The notes beneath the pieces are model-generated. The model did no database searches, had not been told where the DNA came from, and saw nothing but the letters and a program-made list of their open reading frames with translations. A stretch of 64,000 nucleotides of DNA from a virus (taxonomy: Duplodnaviria > Caudoviricetes): the IMG/VR virus record IMGVR_UViG_3300047557_002530. The stretch is one strand, 5' to 3'. Below are positions 62,223 to 62,426 of this stretch, in pieces. How positions within the stretch are numbered: position 1 is the stretch's first letter; each line of letters opens with the position of its first letter. The translations under genes were made by a program, and so were the position numbers.

Positions 62223-62338
62223 TGGTAACAATCACAGAAGAAGATTTGCATAAATTAAACCAAAGAGTTCTCCAGCAGAAAATGGATGAACTCTTTGAAG
62301 AACCATCTACTTACGAGGATGAAGAAGATGATGATTAG
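62222..62338 (+). CDS. 38-aa acidic protein (not in ORF track)
   Basis: MVTITEEDLHKLNQRVLQQKMDELFEEPSTYEDEEDDD; TAATG coupling. Confidence 0.7.
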   Translation: MVTITEEDLHKLNQRVLQQKMDELFEEPSTYEDEEDDD

Positions 62339-62426
62339 AACAATAATATCAGCAGTTCTTCTTTTTTCCTCCATTGGTCTTTTTATACATTGGGGACTTA
62401 CACACGCATATCCAGAGGTTTTATGA
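62331..62426 (+). CDS. ndhQ: NDH-1L small subunit NdhQ-like protein (not in ORF track)
   Basis: MIRTIISAVLLFSSIGLFIHWGLTHAYPEVL matches the recalled NdhQ pattern ISAVL.......I.W.L..AY; ATGA coupling to gnd. Confidence 0.65.
   Translation: MIRTIISAVLLFSSIGLFIHWGLTHAYPEVL

What the first reader, a model, noticed from the sequence alone, without database searches (positions are those of the whole stretch)
62331..62426. Unannotated NdhQ-like gene immediately upstream of gnd
Seen: a 31-aa peptide ISAVLLFSSIGLFIHWGLTHAY. Recalled: the Thermosynechococcus NdhQ C-terminal half reads roughly ISAVLILGFIAGLIWWALHTAY. Known: NdhQ is an NDH-1L-specific single-helix subunit that stabilises the complex. 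Inference: an N-terminally trimmed phage NdhQ; I am not aware of it being described alongside ndhP in a phage.
Basis: partly seen in the sequence, partly recalled or inferred. Interest (0 to 1): 0.78.

Follow-up and report, generated by a model that had tools for sequence, protein, structure and literature searches.

The report
Unannotated cyanophage copy of NdhQ
A freshwater cyanophage carries, just upstream of its sugar-oxidation gene gnd, an unannotated 31-residue gene that is a shortened copy of the host's NdhQ, one of two one-helix subunits that hold the NDH-1L energy complex together; the other, NdhP, lies just downstream of gnd.

Summary
Window 62331-62426 (+) is an intact 31-codon ORF that overlaps the gnd start by ATGA.

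It is a real gene:
- Relatives lie in 343 IMG/VR contigs and six isolate lineages, all unannotated.
- It is the only open frame, with median dN/dS of about 0.28.

The NdhQ reading is supported:
- An HMM built only from canonical NdhQ scores all 42 distinct phage peptides at 20-33 bits (window 24.5 bits). The best of 20,000 composition-matched shuffles scores 14.9.
- Picocyanobacterial hosts carry one 35-45-aa ORF ending in the phage motif F-x-x-WGL-x-[HN]-AYP.
- hhalign links phage to host ORF (98.5%, E 1.6e-15), host ORF to canonical NdhQ (96.5%, E 7.9e-10), and phage to canonical NdhQ (95.6%).
- UniRef names a Prochlorococcus copy of the host ORF NdhQ.

The phage copies lack the N-terminal arm.

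Context agrees. The ORF after gnd is NdhP (E 1.1e-8), and 61 of 119 phage ndhP loci have this gene upstream, 15 of them directly adjacent.

Binding to NDH-1L is inferred, not shown. I found no paper describing a phage ndhQ. This scan reached the same reading earlier on three other genomes.

The parts
62331..62426 (+). Phage ndhQ-like gene: 31 codons plus TGA, one transmembrane helix, C-terminal motif F-I-H-W-G-L-T-H-A-Y-P. Alternative in-frame ATGs at 62328 and 62319.
   Evidence: sequence; family alignments; homology to NdhQ; purifying selection, only open frame.
62315..62319 (+). GAGGA, a Shine-Dalgarno-like site 8-11 nt upstream of the ATGs at 62328/62331.
   Evidence: Read directly. Its function is inferred.
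62222..62338 (+). 38-aa acidic ORF (ends ...EEPSTYEDEEDDD) whose stop overlaps the ndhQ-like start. It is the most constant neighbour of the gene.
   Evidence: phrog_2505, E 7e-5. An E-[EP]-P-S-x-Y ORF lies just upstream in 65 of 85 phage loci. Function unknown.
62423..63457 (+). gnd (6-phosphogluconate dehydrogenase). Its start is coupled to the ndhQ-like stop by ATGA.
   Evidence: NF007161, E 2.6e-113, aligned from residue 1; phrog_1319.
63447..63566 (+). ndhP, 39 codons. Its start overlaps the last 11 nt of gnd.
   Evidence: phmmer against T. elongatus NdhP chain 6khi_P gives E 1.1e-8, 37 bits, aligned to the C-terminal end; phrog_2173.

Best explanation
The ORF is a phage-borne, host-derived homologue of NdhQ. 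NdhQ is the one-helix, oxygenic-photosynthesis-specific subunit that, with NdhP, flanks NdhD1 and keeps the NdhD1/NdhF1 module attached to NDH-1M in cyanobacterial NDH-1L. Shown here: it is a conserved coding gene under purifying selection; it is homologous to NdhQ, closest to the picocyanobacterial form; all phage copies lack the N-terminal arm; and it is genetically linked to phage ndhP and to gnd, ptoX or talC. Inferred: the peptide inserts into the thylakoid membrane with its basic N-terminus on the cytoplasmic side, occupies the NdhQ site on host NdhD1, and, together with phage NdhP, keeps NDH-1L assembled during infection. Cyclic and respiratory electron flow would then keep making ATP while phage gnd supplies NADPH.
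For: Homology to NdhQ:
- A canonical-NdhQ HMM (26 distinct sequences, none picocyanobacterial) hits all 42 distinct phage peptides at 20-33 bits. The shuffle maximum is 14.9.
- In 1.44 Mb of phage DNA translated in six frames, the top 98 hits carry the strict family motif, ranks 99-101 are family variants (WGI), and the first unrelated hit scores 14.2 bits.
- hhalign gives phage-host 98.5%, E 1.6e-15; host-canonical 96.5%, E 7.9e-10 over 36 columns including the (A/S)DSP motif; phage-canonical 95.6%, E 1.3e-8.

The host bridge:
- The phage profile matches 139 of 151 genomes of the picocyanobacterial family at E<=1, usually with one strong hit at E 1e-4 to 1e-9. In seven genomes checked this is the same ORF that is the canonical profile's best hit.
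- UniRef names the Prochlorococcus MIT 9303-type copy 'NADH dehydrogenase subunit NdhQ'.
- An exhaustive search of 1.84 billion proteins with the phage profile returns only phage-type peptides, picocyanobacterial NdhQ-type proteins and one tandem-repeat artefact.

Genomic context:
- NdhP lies downstream of gnd.
- 61 of 119 phage ndhP loci carry the gene upstream on the same strand: 15 directly adjacent, 30 with gnd between.
- Published work states that NdhP and NdhQ sandwich NdhD, and that losing each disassembles about half of NDH-1L (PMC6992706, PMC11794437).

Predicted complex with Synechococcus WH7803 NdhD (NU4C_SYNPW): weak support.
- Score 0.57, best of 3 controls 0.01.
- The mark was reached by 58 of 80 solved complexes and 2 of 110 mismatched pairs. 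At 0.60 or under it was reached by only 7 of those 80 solved complexes and by both mismatches that passed.
- The runs agree in at least 86% of contacts, and the partner's pLDDT is at least 77.
- A like complex is solved, so the pass may come from memory.
Against: - No experiment shows translation, membrane insertion or binding.
- Direct profile matches to the single solved T. elongatus NdhQ are not significant on their own (E 1.5-5.8). Single-sequence phmmer finds nothing. The case rests on richer NdhQ profiles and on the host bridge.
- All phage copies lack the N-terminal arm (RGIMKF...ADSP in canonical NdhQ, x-DSP in hosts). The arm's role is unknown, so the trimmed peptide may not stabilise the complex as the host protein does.
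- The sequences are 29-45 residues of mostly hydrophobic helix, where similarity scores are least reliable.
- About half of the phage ndhP loci sampled show no ndhQ-like motif nearby.
Confidence: 0.72

Rival explanations
1. It is a true NdhQ homologue that acts as a decoy. Lacking the N-terminal arm, it occupies the NdhQ site or competes with host NdhQ. It then weakens or re-tunes NDH-1L, for example by shifting the balance among NDH-1 forms, rather than stabilising it.
For: The N-terminal arm is missing in every phage copy examined, which looks like a selected difference from the host protein. Phages often carry altered mimics of host subunits (my own knowledge).
Against: It is linked to a full-length, conventional ndhP, which points to support of NDH-1L rather than sabotage. 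Hosts themselves have already lost most of the arm, so the arm may be dispensable.
Confidence: 0.14
2. It is an NdhQ-derived helix that now serves another partner, such as PTOX, a phage membrane protein or the adjacent acidic 38-aa protein, and no longer works in NDH-1L.
For: Its most constant neighbour is the acidic ORF (65 of 85 loci), not ndhP (23 of 85). Many copies lie in loci without ndhP or gnd in the stretch held.
Against: The residues shared with NdhQ across the helix and the W-x-L-x-x-A-Y end are the ones conserved in phages. The predicted docking on NdhD passed its controls, though weakly. Linkage to ndhP far exceeds what one gene in a roughly 200-kb genome would show by chance.
Confidence: 0.09
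3. The resemblance to NdhQ is convergent or due to chance, and this is an unrelated small membrane peptide. PetM-like was the other lead.
For: The peptides are short and hydrophobic. The first PDB profile search ranked PetM (E 0.22) above NdhQ (E 1.5).
Against: The PetM match covers only the N-terminal 24 positions and disappears with the larger profile. The shuffle and natural-sequence nulls lie far below the observed scores. The alignment is ungapped and anchored at the C-terminal end in all three groups. Host intermediates carry both the DSP motif of canonical NdhQ and the WGL..AYP end of the phage copies.
Confidence: 0.04
4. It is not expressed as a protein, and the conservation reflects something else, such as an RNA element or the translational coupling region of gnd.
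For: No proteomic evidence exists. The RNA-library contigs that cover it cannot prove transcription.
Against: dN/dS is 0.28 in this frame only, and it is the only frame open in 44 of 44 versions. The gene keeps its sequence where gnd is not the downstream gene: talC, ndhP, or the Y-K-N-W-R-G ORF.
Confidence: 0.01

Closest known systems
Picocyanobacterial NdhQ (35-45 aa; Prochlorococcus, marine and freshwater Synechococcus/Cyanobium, Vulcanococcus; UniRef 'NADH dehydrogenase subunit NdhQ' for the MIT 9303-type protein P0027)
   Same: One helix with the same end motif F-x-x-W-G-L-x-[HN]-A-Y-P. The window core is 16 of 24 identical to the best host copy. hhalign gives 98.5%.
   Different: Hosts keep 8-10 more N-terminal residues with a D-S-[PT] motif. 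Phages start M-x-[KRN]-T right at the helix, and have L-F-S-S-I-G where hosts have L-L-G-G-I-G.
Canonical NdhQ (T. elongatus chain Q of 6HUM, 6NBY, 6KHI, 6L7O; Synechocystis ndhQ/Norf6, 46 aa)
   Same: An ungapped 22-25 residue alignment of the helix and the W-x-L-x-x-A-Y end, up to 14 of 24 identical.
   Different: The phage copy lacks the whole 16-residue N-terminal arm (R-G-I-M-K-F...A-D-S-P) and has WG where most canonical copies have WW. The experimentally shown role in NDH-1L stability is known only for the canonical protein.
Phage ndhP (reported in P-TIM68, S-SCSM2R and viral metagenomes; PMC12801897, PMC10452541)
   Same: A host-derived one-helix NDH-1L subunit carried as an auxiliary gene among pentose-phosphate and electron-transport genes. 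It is often the direct neighbour of the ndhQ-like gene.
   Different: It is a different family. Phage NdhP is near full length (39 vs 44 aa) and already described, whereas the ndhQ-like gene is unannotated in every isolate record I opened.
PetM (cytochrome b6f subunit 7)
   Same: A small one-helix photosynthetic subunit with an F-V-G-W-G-L-G stretch. It was the weak top hit of the first PDB profile search (E 0.22).
   Different: In PetM the WGL lies mid-helix and the helix runs on. There is no A-Y-P end, and the match vanishes with the 19-sequence profile. Rejected.

Membership tests
NdhQ (NDH-1L subunit Q) | Protein under 50 residues with a single transmembrane helix | tested here: met
   31 residues with one hydrophobic stretch of about 20 residues. 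Judged by eye; no topology program was run.
NdhQ (NDH-1L subunit Q) | Significant profile similarity to structure-verified NdhQ and its orthologues | tested here: met
   Canonical HMM scores 24.5 bits against a shuffle maximum of 14.9. It is the top and only hit in the window's six frames. hhalign gives 95.6%, E 1.3e-8. Caveat: matches to the T. elongatus chain alone give E 1.5-5.8.
NdhQ (NDH-1L subunit Q) | Conserved helix-end motif W-x-L-x-x-A-Y, one to a few residues from the C-terminus | tested here: met
   W, L, A and Y are invariant in the phage alignments A1 and A3 and align without gaps to the same residues of NdhQ.
NdhQ (NDH-1L subunit Q) | N-terminal arm (R-G-I-M-K-F...A-D-S-P in canonical NdhQ; x-D-S-P/T remnant in picocyanobacteria) | tested here: not met
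   The arm is absent from all 42 distinct phage peptides, and upstream stops exclude a longer form in several. Hosts have already lost R-G-I-M-K-F, so this feature is not universal in the family.
NdhQ (NDH-1L subunit Q) | Physical subunit of NDH-1L in contact with NdhD1 (and NdhF1) | tested here: inconclusive
   Prediction only, with NU4C_SYNPW: weak support. Score 0.57, best control 0.01. The mark was reached by 58 of 80 solved complexes and 2 of 110 mismatched pairs, but at 0.60 or under by only 7 of those 80 and by both mismatches that passed. Contact agreement is at least 86% and partner pLDDT at least 77. The pass may come from memory of solved NDH-1L. No interface was given.
NdhQ (NDH-1L subunit Q) | Loss destabilises NDH-1L into NDH-1M; the copy complements an ndhQ mutant | not testable with these tools
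   Needs genetics and BN-PAGE. The background comes from PMC11794437.
Cyanophage auxiliary metabolic gene (host-derived) | A clear host homologue, conservation across phage lineages and purifying selection | tested here: met
   The phage profile matches 139 of 151 host genomes at E<=1, usually with one strong hit. There are 343 viral loci and six isolate lineages. dN/dS is 0.28.
Curated family models (Pfam, NCBIfam, PHROGs) | Match above the curated cut-off | tested here: inconclusive
   There is no hit. Genuine T. elongatus NdhQ also hits nothing in Pfam or NCBIfam, so those two libraries hold no NdhQ model. PHROGs was not run with genuine NdhQ.

The most novel reading that the evidence does not exclude
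ndhQ and ndhP form a mobile phage module, directly adjacent in some phages and split by gnd, ptoX or other genes in others. The module lets the virus take over assembly of the NdhD1/NdhF1 arm of NDH-1L. The arm-less phage NdhQ would be a specialised form that outcompetes or outlasts the host subunit, possibly working with the translationally coupled acidic 38-aa protein. It would be a widespread, so far unannotated way in which cyanophages steer cyclic and respiratory electron flow.
Probability: 0.3. Interest if true: 0.75.

Novelty: new member of a known kind. Interest (0 to 1): 0.62.

Why it matters
Cyanophage auxiliary genes shape how much energy and carbon infected picocyanobacteria process. 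ndhP, ndhI and ndhD were known in phages. A phage ndhQ appears in none of the papers I could search, and it is missed by gene callers in every isolate record I opened.

With ndhQ, these phages carry both of the small subunits that published work shows jointly keep NDH-1L together. The two genes are wired into the same coupled gene strings as gnd, talC-zwf or ptoX. That gives a concrete, testable hypothesis: the phage maintains NDH-1L-dependent ATP supply while redirecting carbon to NADPH production.

It also shows that sub-35-codon genes are a blind spot in phage annotation, and that picocyanobacterial NdhQ is mostly labelled 'hypothetical'.

Tried and rejected
- Single-sequence phmmer against the PDB found only a fucosidase at E 2.
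- Pfam, NCBIfam and PHROGs gave no meaningful hit. For Pfam and NCBIfam this is uninformative, because true NdhQ and NdhP also hit nothing there.
- The word-indexed protein search with the 46-aa mechanical ORF found one near-identical 31-aa protein only. Tiny ORFs are rarely called as genes.
I used a back-translated DNA pattern and whole-genome profile searches instead.
- The PetM lead was rejected.
- The 268-aa hit P0064 in the exhaustive search is a tandem repeat of D-S-I-V-L-F-I-H-W-C-L-L-F that adds up nine weak matches. It is an artefact.
- The longer 46-aa reading from 62286 was rejected. The extension is the upstream gene read in another frame, and it is closed by stops in distant relatives.
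- The acidic upstream ORF is not the missing N-terminal arm. The canonical NdhQ HMM gives no hit to it.
- Nowaczyk et al. 2011 (PMC3040284) is not held.
- RNA evidence: short contigs from two RNA libraries cover the ORF (X15 62288-62485; X16 62235-62416). Such libraries can hold DNA, and contigs show neither strand nor level, so I do not count this as proof of expression. Stretches without cover mean nothing.

Full report
**What is there**

The window is part of a T4-like cyanomyovirus (Kyanoviridae-like). The nearest isolate records match gnd at only 72-78% DNA identity. Near-identical DNA occurs in freshwater metagenomes of several studies.

Between tRNA-Ser (61673-61760) and tRNA-Pro (63867-63938) lies a string of overlapping small genes around gnd. 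The finding's ORF runs 62331-62426 on the + strand, 31 codons. Its TGA overlaps the gnd ATG at 62423 as ATGA. Its ATG overlaps the stop of a 38-aa acidic ORF (62222-62338). A GAGGA lies 8-11 nt upstream.

Further in-frame ATGs at 62328, 62319 and 62286 exist. The family alignment places the conserved start at 62331. In distant relatives a stop codon sits right upstream of it.

**It is a gene**

- tblastn finds the peptide in the isolates S-SRM01, ACG-2014h/S-MbCM7, S-CAM9, DSL-LC03, many ACG-2014f genomes and S-SCSM2R. In each it lies in a gap between annotated genes.
- A scan of IMG/VR gave 343 confirmed loci.
- Across 44 distinct DNA versions only this frame is always open. Median pairwise dN/dS is 0.28, against 0.75 and 4.3 in the shifted frames.
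- The peptides are 26-34 residues long. They read M-x-[KRN]-T, then a hydrophobic helix, then an invariant F-x-x-W-G-L-x-x-A-Y and nearly always P.

**Is it NdhQ?**

Curated libraries give nothing. They also give nothing for genuine NdhQ, so they hold no model of it.

A profile of the phage family against all PDB sequences returned three hits below E 10. Two were NdhQ chains of the T. elongatus NDH-1L structures, aligned without gaps to residues 23-44 of 45. The E-values were only 1.5-5.5 (similar).

To test properly I fetched NdhQ genes from genomes by a back-translated pattern. I then searched 301 genomes of the phylum with that profile. About 110 genomes, almost all of 2.5 Mb or more, have a canonical NdhQ at E below 1e-16.

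Several small genomes (1.7-2.7 Mb) gave only weak hits (E 1.4e-7 to 0.03) to one short ORF. That ORF ends in exactly the phage motif and, in Synechococcus-type genomes, keeps the A/S-D-S-P motif of the canonical arm.

The reverse search agrees. The phage profile matches 139 of 151 genomes of that family at E<=1, usually with one strong hit (E 1e-4 to 1e-9), at the same coordinates where both profiles hit. Database members of these clusters come from Prochlorococcus, Synechococcus and Vulcanococcus. One is named 'NADH dehydrogenase subunit NdhQ' by UniRef; the rest are 'hypothetical'.

**Statistics**

- An HMM of 26 distinct canonical NdhQ sequences, with no picocyanobacterial ones, scores all 42 distinct phage peptides at 20-33 bits. 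The window scores 24.5 bits, E 1.5e-4 for a database of PDB size.
- 20,000 composition-matched shuffles reach 14.9 bits at most. The host HMM scores the window at 44 bits.
- Against 42,239 natural six-frame segments from 1.44 Mb of phage DNA, the canonical HMM's top 98 hits all carry the strict family motif. Ranks 99-101 are family variants (WGI), and the first unrelated segment scores 14.2 bits. In the 64-kb window the ORF is the only hit above 8 bits.
- hhalign gives phage-host 98.5% (E 1.6e-15), host-canonical 96.5% (E 7.9e-10, 36 columns) and phage-canonical 95.6% (E 1.3e-8) (92% with the smaller set).
- An exhaustive HMMER search of 1.84 billion representatives with the phage profile gave 52 hits at E of 1e-3 or better. 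They were phage-type peptides, picocyanobacterial NdhQ-type proteins (some inside over-long gene calls) and one tandem-repeat artefact. No other family appeared.

**How the phage copy differs**

About 20 residues precede the conserved Trp in phage copies, about 28 in picocyanobacteria and about 36 in canonical NdhQ. The phage gene has therefore lost the last remnant of an arm that its hosts had already shortened. The window's core is 16 of 24 identical to the best host copy, which is a T-H-A-Y-P type as in the larger Synechococcus/Cyanobium-like genomes. It is up to 14 of 24 identical to a canonical copy.

**Context**

- The ORF overlapping the end of gnd (63447-63566) is NdhP: phmmer against chain 6khi_P gives E 1.1e-8.
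- Among the window's close relatives the order is acidic ORF, ndhQ-like, gnd, ndhP, then a Y-K-N-W-R-G ORF. In others gnd and ndhP are missing and the flanking genes abut.
In 15 it is directly adjacent with overlapping ends. In 30 gnd lies between, and in 4 a PTOX-sized gene does.
- In S-SCSM2R, published for its ndhD and ndhP (PMC12801897), an unannotated copy lies just before talC-zwf-gnd.

**Mechanism**

Published structures place NdhP and NdhQ on opposite sides of NdhD1, in contact with NdhF1, lipids and beta-carotene. Each deletion disassembles about half of NDH-1L, and the double deletion nearly all of it (PMC6992706, PMC7021789, PMC11794437).

I infer that the phage peptide takes the NdhQ site and, with phage NdhP, keeps NDH-1L together during infection.

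The one complex prediction allowed paired the phage peptide (19-row alignment) with Synechococcus WH7803 NdhD. It gave weak support:
- Score 0.57, best control 0.01.
- The mark was reached by 58 of 80 solved complexes and 2 of 110 mismatched pairs. At 0.60 or under it was reached by only 7 of the 80 solved complexes and by both mismatches that passed.
- The runs agree in at least 86% of contacts, and the partner's pLDDT is at least 77.

Because NDH-1L with NdhQ is solved, this may reflect likeness rather than binding. A decoy role for the arm-less form cannot be excluded.

**Novelty**

Papers in the library mention phage ndhP, ndhI and ndhD. None mentions a phage ndhQ; the only co-occurrence of 'ndhQ' and 'phage' is a reference title. 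Subscription journals are not covered.

Notes of this same scan show that follow-up agents reached the same reading on three other genomes, in gnd- and ptoX-flanking arrangements. I treat those notes as leads, not evidence. My counts reproduce both arrangements.

Noticed in passing
window 63447-63566 (+): Unannotated ndhP (39 aa) overlapping the last 11 nt of gnd. phmmer against T. elongatus NdhP gives E 1.1e-8. Known in a few phages, rarely annotated.
   Followed up: yes
window 62222-62338 (+): 38-aa acidic ORF (phrog_2505, function unknown), translationally coupled to the ndhQ-like gene. It sits just upstream of it in 65 of 85 phage loci, a tighter link than to gnd or ndhP.
   Followed up: partly
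L192:2054-2316, L196, L198, L199 (IMG/VR): In 15 of 119 phage ndhP loci the ndhQ-like gene and ndhP are directly adjacent with overlapping ends. gnd or a PTOX-sized gene looks like an insertion into this pair, or the reverse.
   Followed up: partly
L166:3489-3593 (S-SCSM2R, PQ898602.1 about 182744-182848): A divergent unannotated ndhQ-like ORF (ends W-G-V-T-H-A-Y-S-P-L-Y) in the gap before talC. This is the phage published for carrying ndhD and ndhP.
   Followed up: partly
window 62019-62222 (+) and 63750-63866 (+): Two more small membrane ORFs in the same coupled string. The 67-aa one is phrog_1096 (E 6e-37), with a non-significant Pfam hit to the OpcA/G6PD-assembly N-terminal domain (E 0.065). 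The 38-aa one has no match. Functions unknown.
   Followed up: no
window 63526-63753 (+): 75-aa ORF ending Y-K-N-W-R-G. It is a conserved downstream neighbour of the ndhQ-like gene in phages that lack gnd and ndhP at this site (S-SRM01, DSL-LC03).
   Followed up: no
window 59555-61760 and 63867-63938 (+): An array of 11 tRNA genes upstream of the operon, plus tRNA-Pro after it. ARAGORN also calls a 'tmRNA*' at 59929-60229 that overlaps tRNA-Leu and is probably a false call.
   Followed up: no
picocyanobacterial genomes, e.g. L141:1474-1590, L164:1465-1578, L128:189-302: Host NdhQ of Prochlorococcus, Synechococcus and Vulcanococcus is a shortened form without the R-G-I-M-K-F arm. It is labelled 'hypothetical protein' in almost all records, or not called at all.
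   Followed up: partly
window 62320: Contigs from two RNA libraries of related phages carry an extra GAA here, which adds one Glu to the acidic tail of the upstream ORF.
   Followed up: no
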